Source: Leptolyngbyaceae cyanobacterium M33_DOE_097 (GTDB lineage Bacteria; Cyanobacteriota; Cyanobacteriia; Leptolyngbyales; Leptolyngbyaceae). From it: DNA of 64,000 bases. A program made the position numbers and the translations under genes. The notes below the pieces were generated by a model, which had not been told where the DNA came from, ran no database searches, and saw only the letters and a program-made list of their open reading frames with translations. This document shows positions 16,691 through 47,752 of the stretch, one piece after another. Numbering within the stretch: the first letter of the stretch is position 1; each line of letters opens with the position of its first letter. The stretch lies in NCBI GenBank assembly GCA_015296075.1, contig DVDV01000099.1:26446-90445 (forward strand). The letters are read 5' to 3'.

Positions 16691-17466
16691 ACGACTGATT
16701 CAAAGCCGCTCACTTTTCCTGGTCTTTGCGTTGGCTCTCATAGAAGAGTCACAGCGGGCGGAACTGTTGAACGCCTCACAGAAGCGCCTGTGAAGTTGAG
16801 ATACTAGCAGCCTACGGTGTAAGTTTGTCTATCCTTTACTTGTTCAAATTCCCTGGAAAGGTTGACAAGAGATGACTTAGATGGGAAATCTACCTGGGCA
16901 AACTATTTTGACAGTGAAATCAGGAGTGAATCGAACCTTCAAACATAAGGCTTGAGTCAGCCGAGAAAGTTCATGAGATCGCCGCGATCGCGACTGATAA
17001 CTGCAATCTTTCTAGCGCTACGCATAATGTTTGGTACAAGAGAATTTGGGAGTTGCGCTCCTAGCCAGGGGTGGAACTCTTGCATCCCGTTCTAACTTTT
17101 TCCAGTACTGCTATAACGTTTCACAGCTCCGCATTAATTAGGGAAAAGATAAAAGATAAGTTACTCATTTTTCATAAATTTTTTCACTTGTTATATCTAG
17201 AAAATAGCCTTTTTCAACATTTCTCTGCTTTAAAGGATGGGGCGATCGCTCTTGCTTTGGGAGTAATGATTGAGCCATCAATAAGTTGATCGTTAAATTC
17301 CTTCTGGGTTTGATAAATGTTGTCTTTTACAGTGATACCTTAAAGCTATGAGATGGATTTTCTCACTGATTAAACGTATTCGAATTTAGATAACGCTGCT
17401 TTGTCGAAAGCGTGGAACCTAGAATCCGATAGAGTTTTGCGTCACTTCATCCGTGCTGTGAATAAT

Positions 17467-18141
17467 ATGAATTCACCTTCTTCGCAAGAGTCAAATCCTT
17501 ACTTTCTGGTGGTTGATGATCACGAAGCGATTCTTAAAGGAACTGTTCCTGCGTTAAGAGAGCGGTACCCCAAAGCAAAAGTTTTGATGGCTCAAGATCG
17601 GCAGACGGCTCAACAAATTCTCAACCAATTTCCTTTAGATTTAGTGGTAGTTGATTTGAGCTTGCCAGAGTCGTTAGGGCAAGTTGCCAGTCCTGAAATT
17701 GGGATGCAATGGCTTGAGTTATTGATGCAGCATGCGGTTACAAAACCAAACATCCTAGTCGTCAGCACAAATATTAAACCGCTAGTCCGGCTAACTCCTA
17801 AGATCAATATTTACGAAGGTGGGTTTGTTGCAATGGACAAATCACTGCCGATTCAAGAGTTATTAAAATTGGCTGATTTATCCTTGCGCGGTTCGATTTA
17901 CTTGCCGTTAGAGGTGCGATCGCGACCTGAGTTTGATCGCCGTTGGTTGGAGGTGTTAACTCTAAAGTTTCAGCATGGGCTGTCTGACCGCGCGATTCGT
18001 GAGCGGATGGGAATTGCTGAGCGAACGTTGCGTAACTATTGGGTTCGCATCCAGGATGCGTTAGAAGTGGTTGACGACCCCGATAAAGATTTACGAGTTC
18101 AAATTGAGTTGGCTGCGAGAGCAGCTGGACTTATTAATTAA
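17467..18141 (+). CDS. Response regulator with LuxR-like HTH
   Basis: REC motifs YFLVVDDHEAIL, DLVVVDLSLPE and AMDKS. C-terminal HTH LSDRAIRERMGIAERTLRNYWVRI. The ORF opens at TTG 17401; ATG 17467 is preferred. Confidence 0.75.
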   Translation: MNSPSSQESNPYFLVVDDHEAILKGTVPALRERYPKAKVLMAQDRQTAQQILNQFPLDLVVVDLSLPESLGQVASPEIGMQWLELLMQHAVTKPNILVVSTNIKPLVRLTPKINIYEGGFVAMDKSLPIQELLKLADLSLRGSIYLPLEVRSRPEFDRRWLEVLTLKFQHGLSDRAIRERMGIAERTLRNYWVRIQDALEVVDDPDKDLRVQIELAARAAGLIN

Positions 18142-18256
18142 GTCTTTTTTATTGATTTAATCGCTGAATCAAACGGTATAACGTCTGAGTAATGAGAAAT
18201 TTTTAATTGTCACCTTAAAAGCACTTTGACCCCATCCTCTTATCTTTATCTCAACT

Positions 18257-20188
18257 GTGTTGACTCAGTTTTGGCAAAGTATTAAACAACGAGTCACAAT
18301 GTTACGCGAAGTCGCTCTGCCAAGCGTTTTTTTGGTAGGGCTGATTATTTTTATTCGATTAGCCGGTCTATTTCAAGTTCAAGAGTGGATGGCGTTGGAT
18401 ACTTTTTCGCGGTTTTGTCAGGGCGATCGCCAAGAAGCTCCCGTTGTGATTGTTGGCATTGATGAAAATGATTTGAGGTCGGTTGGCAGTTTTCCAATAC
18501 CGGATCGTGATATCGCGGCTGTTCTCCGCATTTTGCAAGCCTATCGTCCTAGTGTGATTGGCTTAGATTTTTTGAAAAATAGTCCTGTCGAGCCGGGGCA
18601 CGCCGCACTCTTGCAAATGCTCAAAGATAACCCCAACATTATTGGCGGTGAGGTCGTTTTTAGTCGTGAGCCGTCGATGAATGTGCGACCGCTATCGGTG
18701 CTGTCGCCGGAGCGGGTTGGCTTTATTGATATGGTGGTCGATTTAGACGGCAAGCTCCGCCGCGCCTTTTTGGCAAAGGTCATTCAGCCGACGGAGATCA
18801 AATATTCGCTTCCCTTACGGCTGGCTCAATGGCATCTCGCGCTGCAAAAAATGCCCTATGAGCTAAGTTTGCAAGCCAATCAACCGATTCAATTTGGCAT
18901 GCTCAAATTGCCCTATTTTCAAGCAAATTCGGGGGCGTATGTCGGGGCTGACGCGATGGGCCATCAAATGATCCTCAATTTCTGTAGCAATCGCGGGCGC
19001 ATTCGTACGCTGTCAATGACCAACGTTTTGCAGCAAAACTTTTCGCCTGAGTGGATCCGCGATCGCGTTGTGATTTTTGGCATGATTGCAGCCAGCGTCA
19101 AGGATGTTTTCTTTACATCAGCTCTTGAAATGACTTTGGCTTCTCCTTTATCGGCACCCCAGCAAAGTCAAACGCAGATCATTTATGGAGTTGAGGCACA
19201 CGCTTATACTACTGCCCAAATCATTAATGCAGCCTTACATAATCAACCGTTGATTCAAACTTGGGCTGACTTTTGGGAGTATTTGTGGATTGTTTTTTGG
19301 GGTGGGATTGGCATTTTGCTGAGTGTTTTGTTGCAGTCTTTTTGGAAAAGTCTGATTAGCCTTTTAGTGGCAAGTCTTGGATTAATTAGTATTTGTTATT
19401 TTGCTCTTTTGCTGATAGGTTTGTGGCTGCCCTTAATTCCCGCGATCGCGGCACTTTTGAGCGCAGGTTTGTTAACTACTTTCTTTGATCAAGGCTTGCG
19501 CTTTGAGGTTGAGCAACGCCGACAAACCATTGAACGCACCTACGAAATGGTGCATAATGGGCCGCTTCAAATTCTGGCTGCTCTATTAAGAGATGTCAGT
19601 AGTAATGAGTTTCAAAATGACAGTTTAGAGCGCCAATTGCGCCGTTTAAATGAGGAATTACGGAGTCTTTTTGGTCATATTTATCAAGAAGTGTCAACAA
19701 ATCAAGCAAGCCTCTATTTACGCGGTGATTTAGTAATCGATTTCAATCTACCGCTGTCAGATTTGCTCTACCAAATCTACAACCAAACCCGCGCCGAAGA
19801 ATTACCTGGTTTCAAATCGATTCGCACGTTTATTCCTCCCAATTTTGAGGTGTTAAAACAGGCAAACTATAGCCTGACTCAAAAACGGGGACTGTGCCTA
19901 TTCCTGCAGGAAGCGTTGATTAATGTCGGCAAACACGCGATCGCCCCTACCCGTCTGGATGTTGTTTGCACCGTAGAGTCAGGTTTGTATGTGTTGCGAA
20001 TCATCGACAACGGCATGGAGCGATTAGACGCAGACGAACCCCAGGAAGGTCAGGGAACGCGGCAAGCACGAGCGATCGCGCGCGATTTGCGGGGGCAATT
20101 TAGGCGTCGTTCCAATACACCCCAGGGCACAATTTGCGAACTGCTCTGGCCACCCAAACGACCCTGGCTGCGATCGCCGCGTCGTTAG
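18257..20188 (+). CDS. CHASE2-domain sensor histidine kinase (HisKA_3-type)
   Basis: CHASE2 signature VVIVGIDENDLRSVGSFPIPDRDIAAVL...VIGLDF, then three to four TM helices, H-box-like EMVHNGPLQIL, and N-box INVGKHA with IIDNGM. GTG start at 18257 (alternative ATG 18299). Confidence 0.85.
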   Translation: MLTQFWQSIKQRVTMLREVALPSVFLVGLIIFIRLAGLFQVQEWMALDTFSRFCQGDRQEAPVVIVGIDENDLRSVGSFPIPDRDIAAVLRILQAYRPSVIGLDFLKNSPVEPGHAALLQMLKDNPNIIGGEVVFSREPSMNVRPLSVLSPERVGFIDMVVDLDGKLRRAFLAKVIQPTEIKYSLPLRLAQWHLALQKMPYELSLQANQPIQFGMLKLPYFQANSGAYVGADAMGHQMILNFCSNRGRIRTLSMTNVLQQNFSPEWIRDRVVIFGMIAASVKDVFFTSALEMTLASPLSAPQQSQTQIIYGVEAHAYTTAQIINAALHNQPLIQTWADFWEYLWIVFWGGIGILLSVLLQSFWKSLISLLVASLGLISICYFALLLIGLWLPLIPAIAALLSAGLLTTFFDQGLRFEVEQRRQTIERTYEMVHNGPLQILAALLRDVSSNEFQNDSLERQLRRLNEELRSLFGHIYQEVSTNQASLYLRGDLVIDFNLPLSDLLYQIYNQTRAEELPGFKSIRTFIPPNFEVLKQANYSLTQKRGLCLFLQEALINVGKHAIAPTRLDVVCTVESGLYVLRIIDNGMERLDADEPQEGQGTRQARAIARDLRGQFRRRSNTPQGTICELLWPPKRPWLRSPRR

Positions 20189-20300: not shown

Positions 20301-20630
20301 ATGGTAAGCGCCTTGCAGGTTTCTAGAAGATATCGTGGCTTTGTTTTGACCCATCAAGGAATGGAGAAACTACAAGAACGAATTCAACAACTTGAAATGC
20401 GGACGCGCATTCGGCAAAGCCCCGGCATGATTGCCCAACGCGTTCAACTTACACAACCCGATGGCATTCACCCAATGACGGTGAGAAAACTGTTACGTCG
20501 TCAAAAAGGCGTGGACAAGCGATCGATTCTCTGCGTTTTTGAGGCGTTGCAGATTCAGCTCGAAGAAGGTGACTATGCCCATGCACGCTTTTGTTTTGAC
20601 CTGGGTATGGCAGATGCGGCCTATTTTTAA
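20301..20630 (+). CDS. Small stand-alone HTH-like protein
   Basis: 109 aa. The segment HPMTVRKLLRRQKGVDKRSILCVFEALQIQLEEGDY resembles the N-terminal HTH module that heads many large cyanobacterial STAND/WD40 signalling proteins (recognised from memory). Confidence 0.4.
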   Translation: MVSALQVSRRYRGFVLTHQGMEKLQERIQQLEMRTRIRQSPGMIAQRVQLTQPDGIHPMTVRKLLRRQKGVDKRSILCVFEALQIQLEEGDYAHARFCFDLGMADAAYF

Positions 20631-20696
20631 GCCTGTTCTGGCTTGATTCACCCTGCTACTCAGCAAACGCAAAATCTGTCTCAAATCTGAAAGGAT

Positions 20697-20726
20697 CCTC
20701 GGTCTTAAACGGCTGAGGCTTTTTTC
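20697..20726 (+). terminator. Putative intrinsic terminator
   Basis: Stem cctcgg/ctgagg (one G-U pair) with an 8-10 nt loop, followed by cttttttc. Confidence 0.45.
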
Positions 20727-21033
20727 TGTTCATGCCTTTATATTGGACTTTAGACTAAACGCGATTTTCCACTATATGTAAGGCCGAACAGCCGTTCGCC
20801 CCTCCTAAATATGGTGTATTTTTTGAATTAGTCCAAACTCCAGTTTATACAAACCAGTGAACACCGACATTTGATAAAAAACCTCTCCTGAAACCCAGAA
20901 GAGGTGTGATGTGAGTAACTGCTGGAGGAAGAATGTTGTAGGGTGCCTCAGTAAAACGCAATCCACTGTCTGACCTGCTTTTGATGCGTTATGGCTGCGC
21001 CTGACACACCCTGCTTGATTCGATTCGGAATTT

Positions 21034-21207
21034 TTAGTGAAGGTAGGAGTGGCCGCGATAGCTGAGTTGCAGATTAGAACGGGGTGCAACACGAGCCGCC
21101 GAGAAGTGAACCGTCGCGCCGCGGTACTTGCCAGTTCGAGTGGTGGGAGCTTGGGCAACTTCGGTCGAGGTGGATTGGTAGGGCTGGCCGAGGAATGTGA
21201 GTGTCAT
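21034..21207 (-). CDS. DUF4278-family small protein (57 aa)
   Basis: Below the ORF-track length cutoff. ATG at 21207 with GGAGAA 8 nt upstream. Product: MTLTFLGQPYQSTSTEVAQAPTTRTGKYRGATVHFSAARVAPRSNLQLSYRGHSYLH. The spaced YRG motifs and the size match cyanobacterial DUF4278. Confidence 0.7.
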   Translation of the reverse strand: MTLTFLGQPYQSTSTEVAQAPTTRTGKYRGATVHFSAARVAPRSNLQLSYRGHSYLH

Positions 21208-21612
21208 GGGGGCTTTCTCCGAGTTGTGTAGGTGGTGTTTGCCGATGAGTTAATCATGTAGTTTTCTTGGCTGAAACCAGGTGACGCAACACCGTGTTAG
21301 AGCGTGAACCTCCGCACTTATTTCTCTGATGGAAATCAACGTTCTCCACTAATCGCTATCACCCTTGCCGATGATCAGCCGCAACTCGCGCCGTGATCGA
21401 GATCACAATCCGTAGCGGAAAAGTGTTAGGGCACCCCCCGATCGCCCTTTCCTTATTCCTTCAGCATCGAAATTTAAGACAGAACTAATTCGGCGCAGAC
21501 ACTTTACAACTCGCAGCAAAAAAGTTCCTGATTCCTCAAACTTTCCGCCGAAATTGCTATTACGGCAGCATTGACCGGAGTTTTCATCAGTGCCATGTGA
21601 TGCCTTTTCCCC

Positions 21613-22938
21613 ATGACTCAACTGTTCCCCCTCCCTATAATTCAGCCTTTTGAGCGGTTACAAGTAACGGATGGTTTACGGATAACCGCCGATCGCTGGC
21701 AACGGGCACACGACTATCACCGTCACCGCCAAAACCTGCACTATCAGTCCGTTCATCAACCTGGTATTGTCTACGGGTTAGGAGTTTACCCGACGGTTGC
21801 TCCCGCCGATGTGCCCAGCAAATATCGCGATGGTTACTGGCTTCAGATTCAACCTGGGATTGCGATCGATGTAATGGGCAACCCGATCATCGTGCCAGAG
21901 CCGATAGACTTTCACATTACAACTCGCCCCACCACAGAAACGGTTGTGGTGTACCTGGTCTTGAGCTACGTTGACCCCACGGAATTGAAGGGGTTAGAGC
22001 GGCAAGAAATGGTACGCGAGACCTTTCGGATTGATGAGAAAAACTCACCTCCGATCGCGCGAGAAGTTGAGTTATGCCGGATTCAGCTCAGCCCGGATGG
22101 CGCCCAGCTAGAAGTACCCGGCGATGTATTTGCCCCTGGCTTCAATCAAATTGATGTGCGCGATCGCCTGAGCGTGCAAGCCCGTCCCCACACGATGGTG
22201 ATGCTGGCAGAGGTCGTTCACCCAGATGATCCAACGGCTTATCGGCGTTCAACGCAACTGGCAAGCTTTGTGCGATCGGTGTCGCCACTCTATCCGGCGA
22301 TGGGTGCCCAGTTAACGGCGCTTTCGCTCTATGAGTTACAAGCAACAACGACGCCCATCGATCTACTCTATTTCACGGGTGAGCAACCCTTTTTGCCAAC
22401 CCAGACTGAAGCAACTGCCCTGCAAACCTATTTAGAACAAGGTGGTGTGCTGCTGGTAGATGTGCCTGCGACAGGTGCAGCCCTGGCAAAAAGCATGATG
22501 GATTTTGCTCAGTCAATTGGCACCCCCTTGCAGTATTTAGAACCCCCGTTACCGTTGCGGGCGATCGCCACGCCTGACCGTCAACATCCTCTGCGCACGT
22601 CGCCTTTTGTGTTTGCCCAGTTGCCTCACTTTGCTGAACAACCGATCCAGGTTTTGGTCGGGGGTGGCATCGTGCTGGTGTTGGGCGACCTGGCGAGTGC
22701 GTGGGGTGTGAGTGACGATCGCCTGCTGCCCCGCGAAATGATTCGCACTGCGCAAGAATTTGGCATTAATATCCTGAGCTTTGCCGCCAAGCGGAGAAAT
22801 TGGATGCAACTGGTGCGATCGCCGCAACCCCTGACCTACTCGTCATCTAGCCCATTTGAAAGTGCCGCTGCTGTTCCCCGCAATGTGGGTGAAAAGCCAC
22901 ACTCGAAACAAATGGAGCGCATTATCGGGCAACTCTAA
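21613..22938 (+). CDS. Hypothetical protein: unknown N-terminal domain plus DUF4159-like C-terminal half
   Basis: 441 aa. LLYFTGEQPFLPTQTEATALQTYLEQGGVLLVD, GIVLVLGDLASAWG and AQEFGINILSFAA match my recollection of DUF4159. The N-terminal ~190 aa is unassigned. Confidence 0.6.
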   Translation: MTQLFPLPIIQPFERLQVTDGLRITADRWQRAHDYHRHRQNLHYQSVHQPGIVYGLGVYPTVAPADVPSKYRDGYWLQIQPGIAIDVMGNPIIVPEPIDFHITTRPTTETVVVYLVLSYVDPTELKGLERQEMVRETFRIDEKNSPPIAREVELCRIQLSPDGAQLEVPGDVFAPGFNQIDVRDRLSVQARPHTMVMLAEVVHPDDPTAYRRSTQLASFVRSVSPLYPAMGAQLTALSLYELQATTTPIDLLYFTGEQPFLPTQTEATALQTYLEQGGVLLVDVPATGAALAKSMMDFAQSIGTPLQYLEPPLPLRAIATPDRQHPLRTSPFVFAQLPHFAEQPIQVLVGGGIVLVLGDLASAWGVSDDRLLPREMIRTAQEFGINILSFAAKRRNWMQLVRSPQPLTYSSSSPFESAAAVPRNVGEKPHSKQMERIIGQL

Positions 22939-23010
22939 CCCGTTGGCTCAGTGGGGCGATCGATAGTTTCTCCGAGTTCCTGTTACATCTCACTTATCAG
23001 GCAGCCTACC

Positions 23011-25263
23011 ATGCCCAAACTCACCAAACTGATTGACATTGCGACCCCTGAGCAGATTGTGCCGCTAAAGCCGGGGCAACCTGCCGAGTTTGAAGTTGAA
23101 GTGGTCAATCAGAGCGACCAATTTGCTTCCTTTCAGCTTGAGTTAGAGTCTGAGGGAGCTGGCACAAGCTGGTATCGGCTATCGCCTGAAGTGTCGGCCA
23201 AAAAGCCACCGGGCAGCAAAACAACCTTTCGCGTCAAAATTCTTGATACCCCAGTCCCTGGCTTTGTCGGTCGCATGAATTTGCTGGTGCTGGTTAGCTC
23301 ACCTGAGCTGCGTCAGCAAGAACGCCGGATTGTGCGGTTACAAATTGAGGCGAGTGCGGCGCGAGTGACGTTACGGGTCAGCCTGCCGACGCGCAACTTT
23401 GAGCAGCGACCCTACGATCGCTTTTTGATTCCGGTGATGGTGTACAACCCATCCAAGGAGCCAATTGTGGATGCGGTGTTACGCGTCACAGGCAAGGATG
23501 GCGACACCACCATTGAGCACTGGCTCGAAAATGCCGAAGAACCCTTGCCACGCCTCACGACGGGGACTCGCGAGTTTACCTTCCGCTGTCGCGTTCCTCG
23601 CCAAACTATTGCTTCCAATCACCTCTTCACTGTTGGCATTTACCGCAACGAAGAATGCCTTGACTCCGCCGAAGGGATTGTCAACATTCTGCCGGATGGC
23701 TACGTGGATTTTGTTTGTCAACCAGAGACGCAGCATTTGCGACACAACGGCTGGCTACCCGATCGCAACAACCGCACTGTTACTTATGAATTGCAGCTCG
23801 ACAACCAGAGCAACCTGCCTCAGCAAGCACAGGTCAGGCTGGAACCTGTCGAAGGCCAATCAGCTTGCCAGTATTATCTGGAGGTCGCACCAACCCTTGA
23901 CCCTGATGATTTCGAGCATAACGGTAATGGGCATCGGCCAACAAAGGTTTTGCCCTCTGCGACTCTGGTAGACCCCCTCCCTGAAGCTGAGCTTCCAACC
24001 AGAACCGGGGTCAGCTCTCCCTATACGCCGCTTGCACCCGCTCAAAAGCTGGTCTTTAATCTCGAAGTCAGCAAAAATCGGCGTCCCTGGTTGGGGTTGC
24101 CGCGCAAGTACCTGTTTCTGGTGCAGGCTGAGATGCAAGAGCAGCGTCTGGATGTGCGAAATGACACCCAACTTTTGCGCCTTTGGATTCACCCTCACAT
24201 TCCCTTAAAGACTCAACTTCTCGGCGGTTTAGGATTGTTGGCGTTGCTCTGGTTCGTCTTAATCTCGCCTCTCTCAAAGCACAGCCGTGCGGTGAATTCG
24301 GTTCAGTTTAATGGGGCGGGCGATCGCTTGATTAGTGCTTCCGATGATCAAAGTCTAATGCGGTGGAATGTGGGGGGCTTTTTTAACCCGTTCACCCGCG
24401 CCAATTTAGGCGTGATTGGGCGGACAGGCAAAGCGGTGCGAGTCGCGCGTTACCGTCCTGTGAGTAACGATTTGGTCGCGGCGGGGCTAGAAAATGGCGA
24501 CATCCAACTCTGGAGCGCGATCGCCCCAAAACAGCAGCCGATCAGAACCTTGACCCGTCAACGCGACGACCGGGTGCTGGATCTGGCCTTTAGCCGTGAT
24601 GCCCGTTATTTGTTTAGCAGTCATGGCAGTGGCACCGTGCAGCAATGGCAGGTCGATCGCGTCTTGAGTACCCCCAGCAGCCTCGACCAGCAGGCCCTTG
24701 GCAGTACCCCCGCACTCGGATTCGCCGCCTACGCCCTGGCTCCGATTGGCACGAATGATCAGCTTGCGATTGGGGGGCAATTTAATCGATTGCTGTTGTG
24801 GAACTGGCAAACTAACACTCAAAAGCCACTCAACTATCCCCCTGGCAGCAAAGACGATTACATCCTCAGTTTGGCAAGCGCTGACTATCAGTCTGACCGA
24901 CTGGCGGTTTCGGATAATCGCGGCAACATCACGCTGATGACATGCACTCAGGATACGTGCAACACGATTGAAGCGTGGCAGGCCAGCGATCGCCCGATTC
25001 ATTCTGTCGCGTTTAGCCCCAATGGTTGTTACCTCGCCAGCGCTGGGGATGATGGCAGAGTCACGCTTTGGGGCATTGGCACGGATGGCAGACGCATCGC
25101 TGATTCCCGCACGGGTCGAGTGGTCGCTCGGCCTAACAGTCAAATTCGCAGCGTTTCTCTGGCTCAACATGAAAACCAACTCCTGGTTGCAACTGGCACC
25201 GAAGACACGAAAGTCCGCGTGACTCGACTGAATGGATTTAACCAGTCATGCGGGAGGCGATAA
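23011..25263 (+). CDS. Bitopic protein: Ig-like (CARDB/NEW3-like) modules, one TM helix, C-terminal WD40 propeller
   Basis: ATG 23011 (the ORF opens at GTG 22951). PGQPAEFEVEVVNQSDQFASFQLEL beta-sandwich pattern. TM QLLGGLGLLALLWFVLISPL (24214-24273). WD40 blades include HSRAVNSVQFNGAGDRLISASDDQSLMRWNV and DRPIHSVAFSPNGCYLASAGDDGRVTLWGI. Confidence 0.8.
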   Translation: MPKLTKLIDIATPEQIVPLKPGQPAEFEVEVVNQSDQFASFQLELESEGAGTSWYRLSPEVSAKKPPGSKTTFRVKILDTPVPGFVGRMNLLVLVSSPELRQQERRIVRLQIEASAARVTLRVSLPTRNFEQRPYDRFLIPVMVYNPSKEPIVDAVLRVTGKDGDTTIEHWLENAEEPLPRLTTGTREFTFRCRVPRQTIASNHLFTVGIYRNEECLDSAEGIVNILPDGYVDFVCQPETQHLRHNGWLPDRNNRTVTYELQLDNQSNLPQQAQVRLEPVEGQSACQYYLEVAPTLDPDDFEHNGNGHRPTKVLPSATLVDPLPEAELPTRTGVSSPYTPLAPAQKLVFNLEVSKNRRPWLGLPRKYLFLVQAEMQEQRLDVRNDTQLLRLWIHPHIPLKTQLLGGLGLLALLWFVLISPLSKHSRAVNSVQFNGAGDRLISASDDQSLMRWNVGGFFNPFTRANLGVIGRTGKAVRVARYRPVSNDLVAAGLENGDIQLWSAIAPKQQPIRTLTRQRDDRVLDLAFSRDARYLFSSHGSGTVQQWQVDRVLSTPSSLDQQALGSTPALGFAAYALAPIGTNDQLAIGGQFNRLLLWNWQTNTQKPLNYPPGSKDDYILSLASADYQSDRLAVSDNRGNITLMTCTQDTCNTIEAWQASDRPIHSVAFSPNGCYLASAGDDGRVTLWGIGTDGRRIADSRTGRVVARPNSQIRSVSLAQHENQLLVATGTEDTKVRVTRLNGFNQSCGRR

Positions 25264-25266
25264 CTA

Positions 25267-27729
25267 ATGACCAAAGAATTACCGATTACCTCGACCTCCT
25301 CTAGCTTGGGGATGACCGTTGCTGACCTGTTTCTTTTGCCTGAAACGGTGCAAGCCTTGGCCCGCCTCTTTTTACATCAAAAGGAACCGCAGTCACTCGA
25401 AGCGATCGCGGCGCAGCTCAATCAGCCCGTGCCTGCCACCCAAACCCAACTTGAAACCATGATGCAACGGGGTTTGGTGGAGAAAGTCACGATCAACAAT
25501 GTGACCTATTATCAGAAAGCGATCGGTCAAAAGCGGGGTGGTCAAATTGCCGAACAACTGTTTCAATCGTTGGCTCCTGGCTCGCCGCTCGCCGTGATTC
25601 GCAACCCAAGTGGTGAGCAACGGGTGATTGCAGGTGAAGAATTTTTCTTGTCAGTGACGATTAAGAATCAAGGACAATGGAGTGCCCTGGTCGATGTCTT
25701 TTTAGAAGAAGGCTCCGAACCTTACGAATGGTGTTTAGACCCCTGCGATCGCCTCGCGCTGGAACATCCCCCTCAACTGACGCTAGGGGCGATCAACACC
25801 TTTGATTTGGCAGAAACGGCTTCGGGTACATCGGGCGAGGTCTTATTTCACTTTCGAGTGCCCGTCACTGCCACTGCCCAGGTCTACACCTACACCCTCG
25901 TGGTGGATGCCCGTGACCACTATCCCGAAGTGACACCGCTTTACTACCAGCAGAGTGTGCGGGTACTGCCACCTGTACGGCAGGTGCAGAAGGCGAAGGA
26001 TCCAACTTTTACCGTTCTACCTGTCACCACCTCGGCTCGACCTGGTCAAGTGCCGCTAGAGGTGCAGGTCACGGTTCACAACATCTCAAATCGGGTCGAT
26101 CGCTTTCGGCTCACCTGTCCCGACCTGGCTGAAGACTGGTATACCGTCCGCTACCCTGAAGCCTTAGAAACCCCCGGTGTGGTGTTGGAGACGAGTAGTC
26201 TGGCGTTAAACCCCGGTGCCAAAGGCGATATTTTTCTGCTGCTCCACCCACCCCGACTCACGCCTGCCGGAATTTATTCACCCACGCTGCGGTTGCAGTC
26301 GGTCAATAATCCCGATTTAGCTCTGCTTGACCTGGTTTACCTGGAGGTGTCACCCAACTACGACCTCAGCCTGGAGCTACGCACCCTCAAGGGCAGCATT
26401 CGCCAAGGTCCTGGTGAGTATGAGGTGGCACTGGTGAATCGGGGTAACACCAACCGAGATCTGCGGCTGATGGCGATCGGTGGCGAAGACAGTCCGCTTT
26501 GCGACTATCAACTCTGGCACGAGGAGGTACGGCTGGCACCTTATCAGGCAGAGGTTGTGCCATTAAGCGTGCAACCGTTGAAGTGGTGGCAACGCCCCTG
26601 GTTTGGTAAGAGCAAAGCGATTCACTTTTTTGTCGAGCCAGCAGACGCAGCGGCGTTACCAATCAATCCACCCCGGTTGCCGGGTGTCTTGCTTTGGAAA
26701 CCGCGCCCCTGGTGGCAATCGCTCAGCGGCTTGCTGGGATTATTGCTGTTGCTGGGTTTGCTCGGCTTCCTGATCTGGAAGTTCTTTCCGCGATCGCCCG
26801 CCCCACCGCGGATTCTGACTTTTGAGGCGGCAGACACAACCTATCGGGAAGCAACGGGTGAAGCTATCCGGCTAAACTGGCAGATTCGCAATCCACGTGC
26901 GTTGCAAGAGCTACGGCTGACCAGCAGTGCTGAGCAAAACACAACAGCGATGCGGCCTATAGTTTATGACTTGCGGCAGGGCATTCCAGAATCGCTAAAA
27001 CCTTTTTGTGGAGCGACTTTGCGACCTGTTTTGATTTGTCAGGGTGTGCCCACTGCAGCCCGTAAAGCCGGAACCTATGCCTTTGAGCTGGCGATCGTCC
27101 CCAGGAATACTGAGGGAGAACCGACTGATACGAGAAAAACGGAGGCGATCGCGATTCAGGCTCCACCCGCTCAAAGTCCGGTTATTACTGAATTCAAGAT
27201 TGACAACCAGGAGGCTCGCCCGCGCCACCTGATTGCGATCAATCCCCGACAACCGATCAAGCAGGTAGTAATTAGTTGGAAAGTGCAGGGCGGCAATGAT
27301 GTCAAAGTCGAGCTTTTGCCGGCACCGGGTAGCGTGCGACCTGCGGGTGCCCTCGCCTATCGTGTCACCCCCCGGATTGGAGCCGAAACCTACACCCTAA
27401 AAGCTCGTAATGCCGCTGGGCAAGAAGTCAGCCGCTCTGTAGTGATTGAGACGTTTGACCCGACAGCGCTTGTCCCTTCGCCGTCACCATCTCCCCTGGT
27501 GCTGCCGCCTGGTGGGGGTGGGGCACCCCTCCCACCAATTCCTGTACCTAGTGGAGCCTTACCTGGCACAACGCCTCCAGGTGGACAACCCTCTGACTCA
27601 GGCCAACCGGGTGGGCGACCCAGTCCAACGGCTCCTGCCAAACCAGCTGCGCCTGCTAATCCAGCGGCACCCGCGCCTGCCGATCCGAATCGCCTCTCGC
27701 CTTCAGAGTTGCCACCTCAATTCAATTAA
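25267..27729 (+). CDS. Bitopic protein: winged-helix-like N-terminus, Ig-like modules, one TM helix, beta-rich region, Pro/Ala-rich tail
   Basis: 820 aa. The ATG lies 3 nt after the upstream stop. SLEAIAAQLNQPVPATQTQLETMMQRGLVEKVTINNVTYYQ is wHTH-like. Repeated VxVxNxGN modules. TM SLSGLLGLLLLLGLLGFLIW (about 26719-26787). Pro-rich tail at about 27456-27726. Confidence 0.75.
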   Translation: MTKELPITSTSSSLGMTVADLFLLPETVQALARLFLHQKEPQSLEAIAAQLNQPVPATQTQLETMMQRGLVEKVTINNVTYYQKAIGQKRGGQIAEQLFQSLAPGSPLAVIRNPSGEQRVIAGEEFFLSVTIKNQGQWSALVDVFLEEGSEPYEWCLDPCDRLALEHPPQLTLGAINTFDLAETASGTSGEVLFHFRVPVTATAQVYTYTLVVDARDHYPEVTPLYYQQSVRVLPPVRQVQKAKDPTFTVLPVTTSARPGQVPLEVQVTVHNISNRVDRFRLTCPDLAEDWYTVRYPEALETPGVVLETSSLALNPGAKGDIFLLLHPPRLTPAGIYSPTLRLQSVNNPDLALLDLVYLEVSPNYDLSLELRTLKGSIRQGPGEYEVALVNRGNTNRDLRLMAIGGEDSPLCDYQLWHEEVRLAPYQAEVVPLSVQPLKWWQRPWFGKSKAIHFFVEPADAAALPINPPRLPGVLLWKPRPWWQSLSGLLGLLLLLGLLGFLIWKFFPRSPAPPRILTFEAADTTYREATGEAIRLNWQIRNPRALQELRLTSSAEQNTTAMRPIVYDLRQGIPESLKPFCGATLRPVLICQGVPTAARKAGTYAFELAIVPRNTEGEPTDTRKTEAIAIQAPPAQSPVITEFKIDNQEARPRHLIAINPRQPIKQVVISWKVQGGNDVKVELLPAPGSVRPAGALAYRVTPRIGAETYTLKARNAAGQEVSRSVVIETFDPTALVPSPSPSPLVLPPGGGGAPLPPIPVPSGALPGTTPPGGQPSDSGQPGGRPSPTAPAKPAAPANPAAPAPADPNRLSPSELPPQFN

Positions 27730-27804
27730 TTTTGAGGGAGCAAAACCAAGGCAGTTTATGTTGTGGTTCGACATGCTCAAAATTGTAGTCGTTAGCCCTA
27801 AACC

Positions 27805-28557
27805 CTACAACACCTTACCAAAGCGACGTTCGCGCTGCTGATAACTGATTAATGCCTGGTGAAATTCTTCCCGATCAAAATCGGGCCAGAGCGTATTTGT
27901 GACGTAGATCTCGGCGTAGGCCATCTGCCACAGCAAAAAGTTACTGATCCGCATTTCACCACTGGTGCGAATCAACAGATCGGGGTCACAAATGCCGTGC
28001 GTATAGAGATGTTGCTCAAACATCGCTTCGTCGATCTGGTCGGGTTGTAGCGTACCCGCTTGCACTTGCGCCGCGATCGCCTGACAGGCTTGCACAATTT
28101 CTTGCCGTCCGCCGTAATTGGTCGCTACCGTAAAGTGAATGCCGCGATTGTTTTTTGTCTCGCTAACGGCGCGATCGATCTCAGCTTGCAGCGATCGCGG
28201 CAACATTTCTAAATTGCCAACAAACCGAATTTGCACATCCTCTTCCATCATTTCGCGCAATTCTTGCCGCAGCACACGCTCAAACAGTGCCATCAAAAAC
28301 TCAACCTCTTCAGTCGGTCGGCCCCAATTTTCTGTCGAGAATGCGTAAGCGGTGAGTGCCTCAACGCCCCAGTCGCGGCAGCAGCGCAGCAACCGTTTTA
28401 AAACATCGACCCCGCGCCGATGACCCATAATGCGGGGCAACCCTCGCTGTTTTGCCCAGCGACCATTGCCATCCATAATCACCGCCACATGACGAGGCAT
28501 TCGTTCTTGCACCAAATCGGTCGGTAATGCTTGCAAGGCAAAATGTTTGGCAGTCAT
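27805..28557 (-). CDS. uppS: Isoprenyl transferase (undecaprenyl diphosphate synthase)
   Basis: [25 protein letters not shown] and [18 protein letters not shown] motifs. ATG 28557 preferred over the Cys-rich extension to 28632. Confidence 0.9.
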
Positions 28558-29013
28558 GATTCTCCACGCGATTCGCTGCAACACAATCAGGATCAGTGAA
28601 CAGCATACAGGACAGAGGCAGGCGCACTTCACTCGCTCAAGCGTTTTAACGTGAAAGCCCTAAAAATATGAAGTTGAGATGTGGCGCGACAGCCTTACTT
28701 AAAACTTAGGATCACGGATTGAATAAAGTCGAATATTTTGTCGTCTAAAGGGTCGAACAGCCATAGCCTTGCGGCAATAGCTTTCGGTATGGCTTCGCCC
28801 TGTTTGGATGCCCTGCAGGGCTTTAGGCTGCGCCAGCACCCATTCAACAAAGTATCGACGTTATTTGTTCTCGTTCCTGAACCGTCAAGTTTTAGCTGTG
28901 CTCAAGCAAGGTCGGGGGCGATCGCTGAACCCACTTCAATAACGCCGAATGAATACACCATCTCTTTTATTCTTCCGCTATTTGAGGCAGATCACACAAA
29001 TCTCTAAAAGGCT

Positions 29014-45379: not shown

Positions 45380-47144
45380 ATGGATCCTGTGTCTAATGAA
45401 CGTTTTACTCTGTCGCTTTCTGCCAATGAAATCGAGGCTCTCAGGCAAGAAGTAATTGAACTCAGACAAAAAAATGCCGATTTAGAAACCCAATTGGCAG
45501 CACTGCGACCCGAAATCCGGCAACCCACTGCGACACCACCACTACCCGATAGCGCGGCTACACTCAATTCAACGGTACAAGTACCGTCTGATTTTTTACA
45601 ACAAATTACGGATAACATTCCCCTGGCCATTTTTTGGCAAGACTGTCAGGGTGTATATTTGGGCTGCAATCAACTAGGAGCCGCGATCGCCGGGTGTCAA
45701 TCAGCCGCTGAGATTGTAGGTAAAACCGACGCAGACTTAGCGTTTTCGCGCAAGCAGATTGAGCTGTTTAATGACTTAAATCGACAGGTGTTAATCACCG
45801 GGGTGCCGCTCCATCATGCGGTGCATACCCTCGTACAACCTGACGGGCAGCAGATCTGGCTGGATGTGACAAAAGCGCCGTTGCAAAATTCAGACGGGCA
45901 AATCATTAGCATCCTAACCGCTTATGAGGAAGTGACCGAGCGTTTGATGTCACAGGTTGCGTTGCAAGACCAGTGGCAATTTTTACACCAATTGATCGAC
46001 AGTTCCCCCGACCTGATCATGGTGCAAGACTGGAGCGGACAAGTCACGCTGGCAAACCGTTCACTTGCCAGGTTTTTGGGAGCCGAGATGAAAGACCTGT
46101 TGGGGTATGGCGCTAAAAGCTTTTTTCCTGCTGGAGCATGGGAACGATTTACTGACGAAAACCAGGAAGTTATTATCTCTGGCGAAGATTTGCAGTCGCC
46201 TGAAGAAATTTGGGCGAATGCGCAGGGTAAAAGTCGCTGGCTTTGCTGGACGAAACGCGTCTTACCCCTGCCGGGTAGCGAAGAGTTGGGTGTACTCGCG
46301 ATCGCGGTTGACGTGACCAACCAGATCCAAGCAAATGCAGCCATTCGTGAGTTGAACGAGCGACTCAAAGCCGAGAATCTGCGCATGGGGGCCGAGTTAG
46401 AAGTGACGCGTCGCCTGCAACAAATGATCTTGCCCCGCGAAGAAGAGTTGGCGCAGATCACCGAGTTGGACATCGCAGGGTTTATGGAGCCTGCCACCGA
46501 GGTGGGAGGTGATTACTACGATGTGGTCTTACAGCCCAATGGCAAGGTGAGCATTGGTATTGGAGATGTGACAGGGCATGGTTTAGAAAGTGGCATGGTG
46601 ATGCTGATGGCTCAAACGGCTCTACGCACGTTACTCGCTACGAATGAAGCCGACCCGGTGAAGCGGTTAGATGTACTCAACCAAATTCTGTATACGAATT
46701 CGCGCCGCATGCAGTCAGGCAAAAGTATGACGCTGACCTTATTAGAGTACGAGGCTGGCAAGATTCGTCTGAGCGGTCAACACGAAGAGTTGATCCTGCT
46801 GCGGTTAGATGGGCAGATTGAGGTGATTGACACCTTTGACCTCGGTTTTCCCTTGGGGATTGAGTCAACGATCGCCCCCTACGTTCAGCAAATCGAAACG
46901 CCGCTTTTACCAGGTGAAGTGGCAGTGCTTTATACCGATGGGGTGACTGAAGCGATGAACGTAAACAATGAAATCTACGGAGTGACTCGGCTCCACAATG
47001 TGTTGAGGGCAAATCGGCATCGTTCTGCGCTAGAGATCCCGTCAAGCGGTTGTGACAGACATTCGCACCTACATCGCTGATCAAGAAATATTTGACGACA
47101 TTACGTTGGTTGTTATTAAACAAAAAAATAAAAATGCCTCGTAA
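45380..47144 (+). CDS. Coiled-coil/PAS/PAS-PP2C (SpoIIE/RsbU-type) Ser/Thr phosphatase. Reading frame broken by a 1-nt frameshift at about 47038-47040
   Basis: GGDYYDV, IGDVTGHG and LYTDGVTEA PP2C motifs. The track ORF stops at 47080. The +1 frame from 47037 encodes SRQAVVTDIRTYIADQEIFDDITLVVIKQKNKNAS and stops at 47142-47144, which is the expected PP2C C-terminus. Confidence 0.85.
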
Positions 47145-47752
47145 AGGATGAATGTTTCAAGAACCTTTCCGGGTTTAGATTTTCACCAAAGGTAAAGTAT
47201 TACGTGTTTACCGATACGTGTATAACGACAGTCAGGTGTCTTAAGTCATTGGGGATAGCGAGGATGTGACACTGCTCTCCTAGCCAGGGTTTCACTCCTG
47301 CACCTTGACTTAACCAGGATGACTTGGCTATGTCCAGCAGTTATGTGGATGGCAAAAAATGTGGATTGAAACAACCTAAAACGAGTTCAACACGATACTG
47401 AATTGATGAGATACAAACAGTTCGATAATTTTTAAACTGTTAAAAAACGGATGAGATCATGGCTATGAAGGGTTACTGACCCAGTACTCCTAGAGACATC
47501 AGTGGTGGCTTGGCTCGCATTGCATTTTTTCTACATAGAGTTCATCACCTTCATGAACCTCAATGTGAGTCAAAAATATTGTTCAATCAACCTATCGTGA
47601 CAGCATAGCCTGGGGCGCAATTCGCAACCTGATGGTGCGATGGCTGCTTTTCTGCTGACTATCCGCAATTCTCTTATTTCATAATCTCGTTCGACTGTTT
47701 ACTATAGATTGATTATTCCCTGTATAAGAGCAATAAGGCGTGCTCACAAACT

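What the first reader, a model, noticed from the sequence alone, without database searches (positions are those of the whole stretch)
21613..27729. Uncharacterised three-gene module: DUF4159-like protein, Ig-like/TM/WD40 protein, wHTH/Ig-like/TM/Pro-rich protein
Three same-strand ORFs have short gaps. The first gap (22938 to 23011) is 72 nt. At the second junction the stop TAA (25261-25263) and the next ATG (25267) are 3 nt apart, which suggests translational coupling. (A) The 441-aa protein has an unknown N-terminal ~190 aa. Its C-terminal half matches my recollection of DUF4159, a class I glutamine-amidotransferase-like fold usually found in Bat/MoxR/vWA-type operons, which are absent here. 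(B) This protein has no signal peptide. It has several CARDB/NEW3-like beta-sandwich modules, one TM helix (24214-24273) and then about 7 WD40 blades. (C) This protein starts with a winged-helix-like head. It then has the same style of beta-sandwich modules (for example QVPLEVQVTVHNISNRVDRFRLTCPDLAEDWYTV...LNPGAKGDIFLLL), one TM helix (about 26719-26787), a further beta-rich region and a Pro/Ala/Gly tail (about 27456-27726). B and C therefore look like paralogous bitopic scaffolds with different end domains. I cannot map the trio to any characterised system. One inference is an envelope-spanning sensing or assembly complex, possibly with a membrane-tethered DNA-binding component.
Basis: partly seen in the sequence, partly recalled or inferred. 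Interest (0 to 1): 0.75.

Follow-up and report, generated by a model that had tools for sequence, protein, structure and literature searches.

The report
Detached membrane-docking module of phage-tail injector
These three genes are not an orphan system: in other cyanobacteria they end the baseplate operon of a phage-tail-like contractile injection system, and they most likely connect that machine to a membrane, but here they sit apart from the baseplate genes.

Summary
The three ORFs and both junctions are exactly as described. Most domain calls hold: DUF4159 and WD40 pass Pfam cut-offs, B and C are paralogues, and the winged helix is supported by a confident model but not by Pfam.

In 69 of 70 species-representative genomes, the homologue of protein A lies directly after the contractile-injection-system (CIS) baseplate genes gp25/Cis9-Cis11-Cis12. 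In about a third of them B and C follow. The one exception is the window's closest relative.

This Cis11 is close to the Streptomyces cytoplasmic CIS (E 2e-120) and far from the Anabaena thylakoid-anchored CIS (E 2e-4).

- **Protein A:** a Cis13-type N-domain with a TssK / phage receptor-binding-protein-like fold, plus a DUF4159 head.
- **Proteins B and C:** single-pass membrane proteins that share three Ig-like domains and the membrane helix. The even number of cysteines after the helix suggests the C-terminal parts lie outside the cytoplasm.

My best reading is a connector (A) plus a membrane complex (B, C) that docks or triggers a CIS. This would resemble TssK-TssLM, Anabaena Cis13 and Streptomyces CisA in function without being a member of those families.

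This is a new variant of a known kind. I could not show that the source organism encodes the CIS core.

The parts
21613..22938 (+). Gene A: Cis13-position protein, 441 aa
   Evidence: ORF. AlphaFold model with pLDDT 87.7 and pTM 0.83. The homologue lies directly downstream of gp25-Cis11-Cis12 in 69 of 70 genome loci and in 52 of 56 Cis11-anchored metagenome loci.
21613..22200 (+). A, N-terminal domain (about residues 1-196): Cis13-type, TssK / phage receptor-binding-protein-like beta domain; presumed baseplate-binding part
   Evidence: NCBIfam NF053767 CIS13_fam, E 1.5e-9 over residues 21-116. Foldseek matches to TssK 5y0e, 5mwn and 6n38 and to Anabaena baseplate chains 7b5h_AA-AC. Matches to phage receptor-binding and tail-fibre proteins in BFVD. 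517 representative clusters carry this domain.
22192..22815 (+). A, C-terminal DUF4159 domain (about residues 194-401): flavodoxin/GATase1-like fold with no conserved Cys-His-Glu triad
   Evidence: PF13709 at 45 bits, above the cut-off. Foldseek to 4i66, E 3.9e-9, TM 0.69 normalised to the target. Invariant residues listed.
22939..23010 (.). 72-nt A-B spacer. In at least 14 other loci a dCache/HAMP (with or without cNMP-binding) sensor gene sits between A and B.
23011..25263 (+). Gene B: bitopic membrane protein, 750 aa
   Evidence: Follows A in 21 of 58 genome loci that have enough downstream DNA.
23011..24216 (+). B, part before the membrane helix: three Ig-like (NEW3/CARDB-style) domains plus an RRPWxG motif next to the membrane; inferred cytoplasmic
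   Evidence: hhalign to the C family, E 1.7e-16. No signal peptide in the sequence.
24217..24273 (+). B, membrane helix (residues 403-421)
   Evidence: Hydropathy 2.26. Aligned with the helix of C.
24274..25260 (+). B, WD40 beta-propeller with four conserved Cys; inferred to lie outside the cytoplasm
   Evidence: PF00400 at 78.6 bits. Cys count after the helix is 4 in 17 of 18 homologues. Conserved Cys columns.
25252..25257 (+). GGGAGG ribosome-binding-site-like motif inside the end of B, 9 nt before the C start codon; the stop of B and the start of C are 3 nt apart
25267..27729 (+). Gene C: bitopic membrane protein, 820 aa ('COG1470 family' in NCBI naming)
   Evidence: Model pLDDT 80.7.
25318..25518 (+). 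C, winged-helix head (residues 18-84); optional in the family
   Evidence: Model H18-23, H26-37, H44-51, H55-67, E71-76, E79-84 at pLDDT about 90-97. HTH_IclR E 1.2e-3, below the cut-off. HTH_IclR or MarR_2 hits in 5 homologues each. Head present in 26 of 48 homologues.
25588..26697 (+). C, three Ig-like domains (residues 108-477) paralogous to those of B
   Evidence: NPCBM_assoc in 28 of 48 and CARDB in 17 of 48 homologues.
26707..26784 (+). C, membrane helix (model residues 481-506)
26809..27456 (+). C, two Ig-like domains after the helix (residues 515-730) with an invariant Cys581/Cys591 pair; inferred to lie outside the cytoplasm
   Evidence: Cys count after the helix is 2, 4 or 8 in 48 of 48 homologues.
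27469..27693 (+). C, disordered Pro/Ala/Gly/Ser linker
   Evidence: pLDDT below 50 for residues 735-798. The sequence varies among homologues.
27694..27726 (+). C, conserved C-terminal motif LSPSELPPQFN (family consensus [LS]SPxELPP[QR]F[DN] at the C-terminus)

Best explanation
The trio is the membrane-proximal accessory module of a cyanobacterial phage-tail-like contractile injection system (CIS). That CIS belongs to the lineage that includes the Streptomyces cytoplasmic CIS.

Protein A occupies the Cis13 ('tail-fibre') slot. I infer that its N-terminal domain, which has a TssK / receptor-binding-protein shoulder-like fold, binds the Cis11/Cis12 baseplate wedge, probably as a trimer. I infer that its non-enzymatic DUF4159 domain is the distal 'head'.

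B and C are paralogous single-pass membrane proteins. I infer that they sit with the N-terminus inside. Each would then present three Ig-like domains (plus a winged helix on C) to the cytoplasm, where they could meet the head of A. Outside the cytoplasm they would expose a WD40 propeller (B) or disulfide-bonded Ig domains, a Pro-rich linker and a conserved C-terminal peptide (C).

Together they would dock the baseplate to a membrane and/or pass on a trigger for firing. That is the job done by TssK plus TssL/M in type VI secretion, by the membrane helix of Cis13 in the Anabaena thylakoid-anchored CIS, and by CisA in Streptomyces.

In this genome, and in its closest relative, A-B-C has been separated from gp25-Cis11-Cis12 but kept intact as a unit.

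Shown: gene linkage, domain identities, B/C paralogy and fold similarities. Inferred: the A-baseplate contact, the A-B/C contact, the membrane topology and the function.
For: Gene linkage:
- Calothrix PCC 7507, Gloeobacter kilaueensis, Limnospira and Acaryochloris all show gp25-Cis11-Cis12-A-(X)-B-C.
- 69 of 70 GTDB species loci have the baseplate trio directly upstream of A. 20 of 58 have B and C downstream.
- In an independent set anchored on Cis11, 52 of 56 loci have A. Of the 34 loci with more than 8 kb of DNA downstream, 18 have B and 14 have C.
- L173, whose A is 58% identical to the window's, still has the whole operon.
- More distant proteins carrying the same N-domain also follow Cis12.

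Lineage: Cis11 matches Streptomyces 9gtp at E 2e-120 and Anabaena All3317 at only 2e-4. TIGR02241, TIGR02242, TIGR02243, VgrG-related, PAAR-like and CIS5/CIS1 tube hits occur in the same clusters.

Protein A: CIS13_fam N-domain. TssK and phage receptor-binding-protein folds. DUF4159. No membrane helix in 58 of 78 homologues.

Proteins B and C: hhalign E 1.7e-16 including the membrane helix. The Cys count after the helix is always even in C (48 of 48) and is 4 in 17 of 18 B proteins, whereas the counts before the helix mix odd and even.

The ancestral target is not the thylakoid: by established knowledge Gloeobacter has no thylakoids, yet it has the full module.

Signal input elsewhere: a dCache-HAMP sensor (with or without cNMP-binding) lies between A and B in at least 14 loci. 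FHA and PP2C genes follow C in Gloeobacter.

Precedents from the literature: Anabaena Cis13 and Streptomyces CisA (PMC8894136, PMC12237407).
Against: - No CIS core gene lies in the 64-kb window, and I could not show that the source organism has one. The only Cis11 contig found in the same metagenome has 65% G+C against about 50% for the window.
- The TssK similarity is fold-level only and weak (E 4.6e-4, TM about 0.2 over the whole chain). No sequence profile links A to TssK or to Anabaena Cis13 in the PDB.
- No interaction was modelled or measured.
- Topology rests on cysteine parity. The positive-inside rule is uninformative. The four Cys of B could instead bind a metal in the cytoplasm.
- About two thirds of the genomes with A lack B and C next to it, so B and C are not obligatory partners in cis.
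- A solitary C paralogue exists away from any CIS gene.
Confidence: 0.62

Rival explanations
1. Orphaned or co-opted remnant. The window organism has lost the CIS core, and A-B-C now works on its own, for example as an envelope or thylakoid scaffold, or is drifting towards loss.
For: The trio is flanked by housekeeping genes (uppS, cdaA, lysA, rimI, clpB) and by unrelated signalling genes. No CIS gene lies in the window. No matching Cis11 contig was found for this organism. A solitary C paralogue exists elsewhere.
Against: - All three ORFs are intact and conserved over their full length against L008 (63%, 76%, 70% identity) and against a 95%-identical variant.
- In the sister lineage, baseplate operons that stop at Cis12 without A (L129, L176-L180) have the same G+C and a tetranucleotide correlation of 0.94 with the detached-trio contig L008. 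That equals the within-genome control. This suggests a split operon, not a loss.
- Only the 80 best of 225 Cis11 matches were returned, so absence is not shown.
Confidence: 0.15
2. A is a true tail fibre or receptor-binding protein of an extracellular CIS. Its DUF4159 domain would recognise a target cell after release. B and C would serve another purpose, such as particle release, self-protection or regulation, and would not anchor the machine.
For: A sits in the slot that encodes tail fibres in Afp/PVC-type clusters (PMC12237407). Its N-domain resembles phage receptor-binding proteins. Many genomes have A without adjacent B and C.
Against: - A has no fibre-like repeats or coiled shaft. It is a compact two-domain protein.
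- The closest solved relative by Cis11 is the Streptomyces system, which is cytoplasmic and lacks tail fibres.
- B and C are membrane proteins co-transcribed head-to-tail with A, and they stay with A, not with the baseplate, when the operon is split.
Confidence: 0.12
3. One reading: an independent envelope-spanning sensing complex whose output is a membrane-tethered transcription factor, namely the winged helix of C.
For: The winged-helix fold is confidently modelled at the cytoplasmic N-terminus of C. MarR/IclR profile hits occur in some homologues, and one is annotated as a 'transcriptional regulator'.
Against: 22 of 48 homologues lack the head entirely. Gene linkage to CIS baseplate genes is nearly universal. 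Three Ig-like domains separate the winged helix from the membrane, unlike ToxR/CadC-type regulators (my own knowledge). DNA binding is untested.
Confidence: 0.08

Closest known systems
Streptomyces coelicolor cytoplasmic CIS and its membrane protein CisA (SCO4242); PDB 9gtp; eLife 2025, PMC12237407
   Same: The baseplate protein Cis11 of the cyanobacterial clusters is a close homologue (E 2e-120). A bitopic membrane protein is encoded just after the baseplate genes, in the 'tail-fibre slot'. In Streptomyces that protein is needed for firing and is not part of purified particles.
   Different: CisA is one 468-aa protein with a disordered N-terminal part and a substrate-binding-protein-like periplasmic domain. 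Here there are two paralogous proteins of 750-820 aa with Ig-like arrays and a WD40 or Ig/Pro-rich exterior. There is also a soluble Cis13/DUF4159 connector that the Streptomyces cluster is not reported to have. Sequence homology to CisA could not be tested because no CisA sequence was at hand.
Type VI secretion TssK with the TssL/TssM/TssJ membrane complex
   Same: The architecture is the same in outline: a baseplate-bound connector with a receptor-binding-protein-like N-terminal shoulder and a separate C-terminal head, plus membrane proteins that hold the baseplate at the membrane. Foldseek links the model of A to TssK (5y0e, 5mwn, 6n38). FHA/PP2C genes next to the Gloeobacter module recall, from my own knowledge, the threonine-phosphorylation control of the Pseudomonas H1-T6SS.
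   Different: There is no sequence-level membership, since no TssK profile hit was found. The head is DUF4159, not the TssK head. B and C are unrelated to TssL/M/J. The tube, spike and wedge genes are of the Afp / TIGR02241-02243 type.
Anabaena PCC 7120 thylakoid-anchored CIS: Cis13 (All3316), Cis12 extension and Cis19; PDB 7b5h; Nat Microbiol 2022, PMC8894136
   Same: It is a cyanobacterial CIS fixed to an internal membrane through the protein in the Cis13 slot. The N-domain of that protein binds the baseplate as a trimer. Foldseek gives a weak match of A to the trimeric 7b5h chains AA-AC.
   Different: It is a different CIS lineage (Cis11 E 2e-4). Anabaena Cis13 carries its own membrane helix at residues 122-154. 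A has none and carries DUF4159 instead. Here the membrane helices are on separate proteins, B and C. Gloeobacter, which has the module, has no thylakoids.
DUF4159 (PF13709; structure 4i66, Hoch_4089) and the IFT52/GldG 'GIFT'-like fold
   Same: The C-terminal half of A is a bona fide DUF4159 domain.
   Different: Fusion to a CIS baseplate-attachment domain and placement in CIS operons is not described in any paper of the library searched. The only paper that holds the term is a Pfam database paper.

Membership tests
NCBIfam NF053767 'CIS13 family contractile injection system protein' | Whole-protein score at or above the curated cut-off (370 bits) | tested here: not met
   37.6 bits, E 1.5e-9. 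Only residues 21-116 match profile positions 12-99 of 392. The same holds for the Calothrix orthologue at 49 bits.
NCBIfam NF053767 'CIS13 family contractile injection system protein' | Shares the N-terminal domain of the family | tested here: met
   Significant local match in A, in its orthologues, and in 9 of 10 distant relatives scanned.
Cis13 slot of a CIS gene cluster (functional class) | Encoded directly downstream of the baseplate wedge genes Cis11 and Cis12 | tested here: inconclusive
   Met for orthologues in 69 of 70 genome loci and 52 of 56 metagenome loci. Not met in the window itself or in its closest relative L008, where the trio is detached.
Cis13 slot of a CIS gene cluster (functional class) | Physically attached to the baseplate, as a trimer | not testable with these tools
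   No multimer prediction was available. There is indirect support: single-chain proteins with three tandem copies of the N-domain occupy the same slot in other clusters.
Pfam PF13709 DUF4159 | Score above the gathering threshold, and matching fold | tested here: met
   45 bits against 25.9. Foldseek to 4i66, E 3.9e-9, TM 0.69 normalised to the target.
T6SS TssK | Sequence-profile membership | tested here: not met
   No TssK family among the Pfam or NCBIfam hits at E up to 1. No TssK chain in the PDB profile search at E up to 1.
T6SS TssK | N-terminal shoulder fold shared with phage receptor-binding proteins | tested here: inconclusive
   Foldseek to 5y0e_A gives E 4.6e-4 and probability 0.97, but TM is only 0.21 over the whole chain. 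Many phage receptor-binding and tail-fibre models match at E 1e-4 to 1e-3.
Pfam PF00400 WD40 repeat (protein B) | Score above the gathering threshold | tested here: met
   78.6 bits against 27, three scored repeats, plus many beta-propeller families. The number of blades was not determined.
CARDB / NPCBM_assoc (NEW3) Ig-like domains; 'COG1470 family' (protein C) | Profile match above threshold in the window protein | tested here: not met
   CARDB E 0.028, 15.1 bits against 22.7. However, NPCBM_assoc matches 28 of 48 homologues and CARDB 17 of 48. The model shows five beta-sandwich domains that match Ig/ASH/MG arrays. Homologues are named 'COG1470 family protein' by NCBI.
Winged-helix DNA-binding domain (IclR/MarR type; protein C) | Profile score above threshold | tested here: not met
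   HTH_IclR 19 bits against 22; MarR_2 12.6 against 27. The best homologue reaches E 7.8e-6.
Winged-helix DNA-binding domain (IclR/MarR type; protein C) | Three helices followed by a beta-hairpin wing | tested here: met
   Model elements H26-37, H44-51, H55-67, E71-76, E79-84 at pLDDT about 90-97. DNA binding itself cannot be tested here.
Streptomyces CisA-type membrane adaptor | Bitopic, N-terminus in the cytoplasm, C-terminus outside | tested here: inconclusive
   One membrane helix and no signal peptide. Even Cys counts after the helix favour N-in/C-out. The positive-inside rule is uninformative.
Streptomyces CisA-type membrane adaptor | Sequence or domain homology to CisA (disordered N-terminal part, substrate-binding-protein-like C-terminal domain) | not tested
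   No CisA sequence was available. The domain make-up described in PMC12237407 differs from that of B and C.
Anabaena thylakoid-anchored CIS | Cis13 with its own membrane helix; baseplate of the All3317 type | tested here: not met
   The only hydrophobic window found in A (score 1.85) lies inside the DUF4159 core, and 58 of 78 homologues have none. Cis11 matches All3317 only at E 2e-4.
Known anti-phage defence systems (PADLOC) | Any component profile match | tested here: not met
   Only a weak repeat-type hit of the WD40 region to a HEAT-ARM model.

The most novel reading that the evidence does not exclude
A, B and C (with the dCache-HAMP sensor 'X' in other genomes) could form a previously undescribed, signal-gated trans-membrane docking complex for a cytoplasmic-type CIS in cyanobacteria.

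In this reading the DUF4159 head of a TssK-like connector plugs into the cytoplasmic Ig arrays of two paralogous bitopic proteins. Their exterior parts communicate through binding of the conserved C-terminal peptide of C ([LS]SPxELPP[QR]F) to the WD40 propeller of B. Events in the periplasm or thylakoid lumen would then decide when the injector fires.

That would be a third solution to 'how a phage tail is coupled to a host membrane', alongside T6SS TssJLM and Anabaena Cis13. It would be old enough to predate thylakoids, since it is present in Gloeobacter.
Probability: 0.3. Interest if true: 0.8.

Novelty: new variant of a known kind. Interest (0 to 1): 0.62.

Why it matters
How CISs outside the T6SS group meet a membrane and decide to fire is an open question. 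Streptomyces CisA was described only in 2025, and the Chloroflexota relatives have no close cisA homologue (PMC12998442).

This module gives a widespread and deeply conserved candidate answer for cyanobacteria, from Gloeobacter to Nostocales, Limnospira and Acaryochloris.
- It assigns a first biological context to a CIS-linked branch of DUF4159.
- It assigns a context to a large family of cyanobacterial 'COG1470' and WD40 membrane proteins.
- It points to testable parts: connector, membrane pair, sensor and C-terminal peptide.

It also shows that CIS accessory genes can sit far from the core cluster. Cluster-based CIS surveys would miss them there.

Tried and rejected
- BLASTP of B against C: not significant (E 0.13). 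Only the profile-profile comparison showed paralogy.
- PDB sequence-profile search with the A family: only DUF4159-like 4i66, de novo TIM barrels and IFT52. No TssK and no Anabaena Cis13.
- PHROGs and PADLOC scans of the trio: nothing useful.
- Foldseek of the C model: only generic Ig/ASH/macroglobulin/cadherin arrays.
- Promoter and terminator scan of 20600-28700: not above shuffled expectation, and no terminator between the genes that stands out.
- Literature: 'DUF4159' occurs in one Pfam paper only. No paper holds contractile injection, WD40, cyanobacteria and baseplate together.
- Finding the CIS core of the source organism:
  - The metagenome scan with Cis11 found contig L121 from the same sample, but it has 65% G+C and a tetranucleotide correlation of 0.31 with the window, so it is another organism.
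  - The closest Cis11 cluster (P0376) lies in split operons whose composition matches the sister lineage L008, not the window.
  - Cluster membership tables gave no assembly accessions.
- Membership in the Anabaena thylakoid-anchored CIS was considered first and rejected on Cis11 similarity and on the lack of a membrane helix in A.
- The positive-inside rule for topology was uninformative.

Full report
**1. The observation**

- A is 21613-22938 (441 aa).
- B is 23011-25263 (750 aa). A longer GTG-started ORF begins at 22951, but gene callers and homologues agree on ATG 23011.
- C is 25267-27729 (820 aa).
- The A-B gap is 72 nt. The stop of B and the ATG of C are 3 nt apart, with GGGAGG 9 nt before the ATG.

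The window is part of a 125-kb contig of JGI metagenome 3300006865. It looks like an ordinary cyanobacterial chromosome. It carries cyanophycin synthetase, rbcL, lysA-cdaA-uppS, rimI and clpB.

**2. Domain checks**

- **A.** It carries DUF4159 above the Pfam threshold. Its N-terminal 100 residues hit NCBIfam 'CIS13 family contractile injection system protein' at E 1.5e-9, far below the whole-protein cut-off.
- **B.** Its C-terminal 330 residues are WD40.
- **C.** It has only sub-threshold winged-helix and CARDB hits. Its AlphaFold model has mean pLDDT 80.7 and shows:
  - a winged helix at residues 18-84;
  - three beta-sandwich domains at 108-477;
  - a membrane helix at 481-506;
  - two further beta-sandwich domains at 515-730;
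  - a disordered Pro-rich tail.
- **C family.** NPCBM_assoc matches 28 of 48 members, CARDB 17 of 48, and HTH_IclR and MarR_2 five each. Only 26 of 48 members have the winged-helix head at all.
- **B and C are paralogues.** hhalign gives probability 98.7% and E 1.7e-16 for B 19-~420 against C 120-~510. The aligned span includes an RRPWxG motif next to the membrane and the membrane helix. BLASTP alone missed this.

**3. Context elsewhere: the key result**

A has hundreds of cyanobacterial homologues at 43-64% identity, from Gloeobacter to Nostocales.

In Calothrix PCC 7507 the order is tube genes, VgrG, PAAR, gp25, Cis11, Cis12, A, B, C. In Gloeobacter kilaueensis it is gp25, Cis11, Cis12, A, a 207-aa gene, B, C, an FHA protein and a PP2C phosphatase.

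Limnospira and Acaryochloris show gp25-Cis11-Cis12-A-X-B-C. There X is a dCache/HAMP or HAMP/cNMP-binding protein.

| Data set | Loci with enough flanking DNA | Result |
|---|---|---|
| 80 GTDB species loci anchored on A | 70 upstream | 69 have gp25-Cis11-Cis12 directly upstream of A |
| Same set | 58 downstream | 21 have B, 20 have C, 20 have both |
| 80 metagenome loci anchored on Cis11 | 56 with more than 3 kb downstream | 54 have Cis12, 52 have A |
| Same set | 34 with more than 8 kb downstream | 18 have B, 14 have C |

The single exception in the first row is L008, the closest relative of the window.

Distant proteins with the same N-domain also follow Cis12 in other CIS clusters. These include forms with a coiled coil plus DUF4159, and 700-aa proteins with three tandem copies of the domain.

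**4. Which CIS**

The Calothrix Cis11 matches the Streptomyces coelicolor CIS baseplate protein (PDB 9gtp) at E 2e-120. It matches Anabaena All3317 (7b5h) only at 2e-4. The clusters carry TIGR02241, TIGR02242 and TIGR02243, a VgrG-related spike, a PAAR-like protein and CIS5/CIS1-like tube proteins.

This is therefore a second cyanobacterial CIS lineage. It is distinct from the published thylakoid-anchored one (PMC8894136) and related to the cytoplasmic CIS of Streptomyces (PMC12237407). I did not locate the sheath gene. In the loci inspected the system is spread over more than one operon.

**5. Anatomy of A**

The model has pLDDT 87.7 and pTM 0.83. It has a beta-rich N-domain at about residues 14-201 and a flavodoxin/GATase1-like C-domain at about 194-400.

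Foldseek against the PDB:
- C-domain: 4i66, a DUF4159-type protein, at E 3.9e-9.
- N-domain: T6SS TssK (5y0e at E 4.6e-4 and probability 0.97, also 5mwn and 6n38), and the trimeric chains AA-AC of the Anabaena baseplate 7b5h.

Against viral models it finds phage receptor-binding, tail-fibre and minor-tail proteins.

No Cys-His-Glu triad is conserved in the C-domain, so an enzymatic role is unlikely (inference). A has no membrane helix.

From established knowledge, TssK is a trimeric connector. Its shoulder, which resembles phage receptor-binding proteins, sits on the TssFG wedge, and its head contacts the membrane complex. A has that same two-part logic with a different head.

**6. Topology of B and C**

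Neither protein has a signal peptide, and each has one strong membrane helix.

| Protein | Cys count after the helix | Cys count before the helix |
|---|---|---|
| C (48 homologues) | 2, 4 or 8 in all 48; C581 and C591 invariant | 1 to 6, odd and even mixed |
| B (18 homologues) | 4 in 17 of 18 | 3 to 6, odd and even mixed |

The simplest reading is one disulfide per Ig domain after the helix. That places the parts after the helix outside the cytoplasm (N-in/C-out). This is an inference. The positive-inside rule does not decide the matter, and the four Cys of B could bind a metal instead.

By established knowledge Gloeobacter lacks thylakoids, yet it has the module. The ancestral membrane must therefore be the cytoplasmic membrane. 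In thylakoid-bearing species I cannot tell which membrane is used.

**7. Mechanism proposed**

- A binds the Cis11/Cis12 wedge through its N-domain.
- Its DUF4159 head meets the cytoplasmic Ig arrays of B and/or C.
- B and C hold or recruit the baseplate at the membrane and couple it to events outside. The exterior parts are the WD40 propeller of B and, in C, the Ig domains, the Pro-rich linker and the conserved C-terminal peptide [LS]SPxELPP[QR]F[DN].

Two observations in other genomes suggest that docking or firing is signal-controlled. At least 14 loci carry a sensor between A and B: dCache-HAMP with or without cNMP-binding, or Tll0287-like plus cNMP-binding, and with no enzymatic output domain. 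Gloeobacter has FHA and PP2C genes after C.

Linkage, domains, paralogy and fold similarity are shown. Every contact, and the function itself, is inferred.

**8. Why the trio stands alone here**

L173, whose A is 58% identical to the window's, still has the complete operon. The window and L008 (A 63% identical by tblastn) both have A-B-C detached, with different flanking genes.

The Cis11 cluster closest to L173 (P0376, 76% identical) lies in operons that stop after Cis12 without A (L176-L180; also L129). These loci have the same G+C as L008, about 0.53. Their tetranucleotide correlation with L008 is 0.94. That is the highest among all loci held, and it equals the within-genome control.

This is circumstantial evidence that the sister lineage carries a split system: the baseplate operon in one place and A-B-C in another. 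When the operon split, A stayed with B and C and not with the baseplate genes. This supports a functional A-B-C unit.

For the window's own organism I found no core genes. The one Cis11 contig from the same metagenome has 65% G+C and belongs to another organism. The orphan reading therefore stays open.

**9. Comparison and novelty**

In function the module resembles three known solutions: TssK with TssLM, the membrane helix of Anabaena Cis13, and Streptomyces CisA. By the membership tests it belongs to none of them.
- It fails the CIS13_fam whole-protein cut-off.
- It has no TssK profile hit.
- A has no membrane helix.
- Its domain make-up differs from that described for CisA.

No paper in the library links DUF4159 or these WD40 and COG1470 proteins to a CIS. 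I rate it a new variant of a known kind.

**10. Verdict**

The finding is more specific, and more interesting, than 'uncharacterised module'. However, the mechanism rests on synteny and fold similarity, not on any interaction data.

Noticed in passing
window 27694-27726 (C residues 810-820): Most C homologues end in a conserved motif, [LS]SPxELPP[QR]F[DN] at the C-terminus, after a Pro/Ser/Ala linker of variable sequence. This looks like a short docking peptide. The WD40 propeller of B, inferred to lie on the same side of the membrane, is an obvious candidate partner.
   Followed up: partly
L099:12996-14585, L108:15175-17100, L113:5858-7348, L088:6206-7591, L089:6004-7737 and others: In at least 14 loci a gene lies between A and B. 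It encodes dCache_1+HAMP (with or without cNMP_binding), or Tll0287-like plus cNMP_binding, with no enzymatic output domain. It is a likely ligand-gated regulator of the module. It is absent from the window, where the A-B gap is 72 nt.
   Followed up: partly
L006:16399-18751 (Gloeobacter kilaueensis): A zinc-ribbon/FHA protein and a PP2C phosphatase directly follow C. From my own knowledge, this recalls the Fha1/PppA threonine-phosphorylation control of the Pseudomonas H1-T6SS.
   Followed up: no
L171:5718-12127; proteins P0351, P0353, P0360: Other CIS clusters have, after Cis12, a protein of about 700 aa with three tandem copies of the Cis13-type N-domain, which could form a single-chain pseudo-trimer. 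L171 also has a 1059-aa WD40 protein between Cis11 (1449 aa) and Cis12. WD40 proteins thus recur in CIS baseplate operons.
   Followed up: partly
L129:7097-11430; L176-L180: Baseplate operons gp25-Cis11-Cis12 that end without A. Their composition (G+C about 0.53, tetranucleotide r = 0.94) matches L008, the detached-trio contig of the window's sister lineage. L120 also lacks A and has an unrelated 870-aa ORF after Cis12.
   Followed up: partly
L174:10001-12454 (protein P0124): A solitary C paralogue (49% identical, with the winged-helix head) without A, B or any CIS gene nearby. It sits next to PatA-type response regulators and an uncharacterised 1025-aa protein.
   Followed up: no
L121 (Ga0073934_10021130, same metagenome as the window): A 6.8-kb contig with 65% G+C carries gp25, Cis11 and Cis12 homologues of this lineage. 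Its Cis11 is 66% identical to that of Crinalium, so a second, high-GC organism in the same sample has the system.
   Followed up: partly
L026/L062 (Nostoc paludosum FACHB-159) and L029/L072 (Nostoc sp. FACHB-152): Two separate gp25-Cis11-Cis12-A loci occur in one genome, neither followed by B and C. Some Nostocales therefore carry two copies of this baseplate operon.
   Followed up: no
window 17401-20188 and 21034-21207: Upstream of the trio lie a response-regulator-like ORF, a CHASE2-domain sensor protein (643 aa), a 109-aa ORF and, on the minus strand, a 57-aa DUF4278 gene. The closest relative L008 does not share these flanking genes, so they are probably unrelated to the trio.
   Followed up: partly
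window 45380-49555: A PAS-SpoIIE (PP2C-type) phosphatase and a PAS-PAS adenylate/guanylate cyclase lie next to each other. This is ordinary cyanobacterial signalling content, noted only because cNMP-binding sensors accompany the module in other genomes.
   Followed up: no
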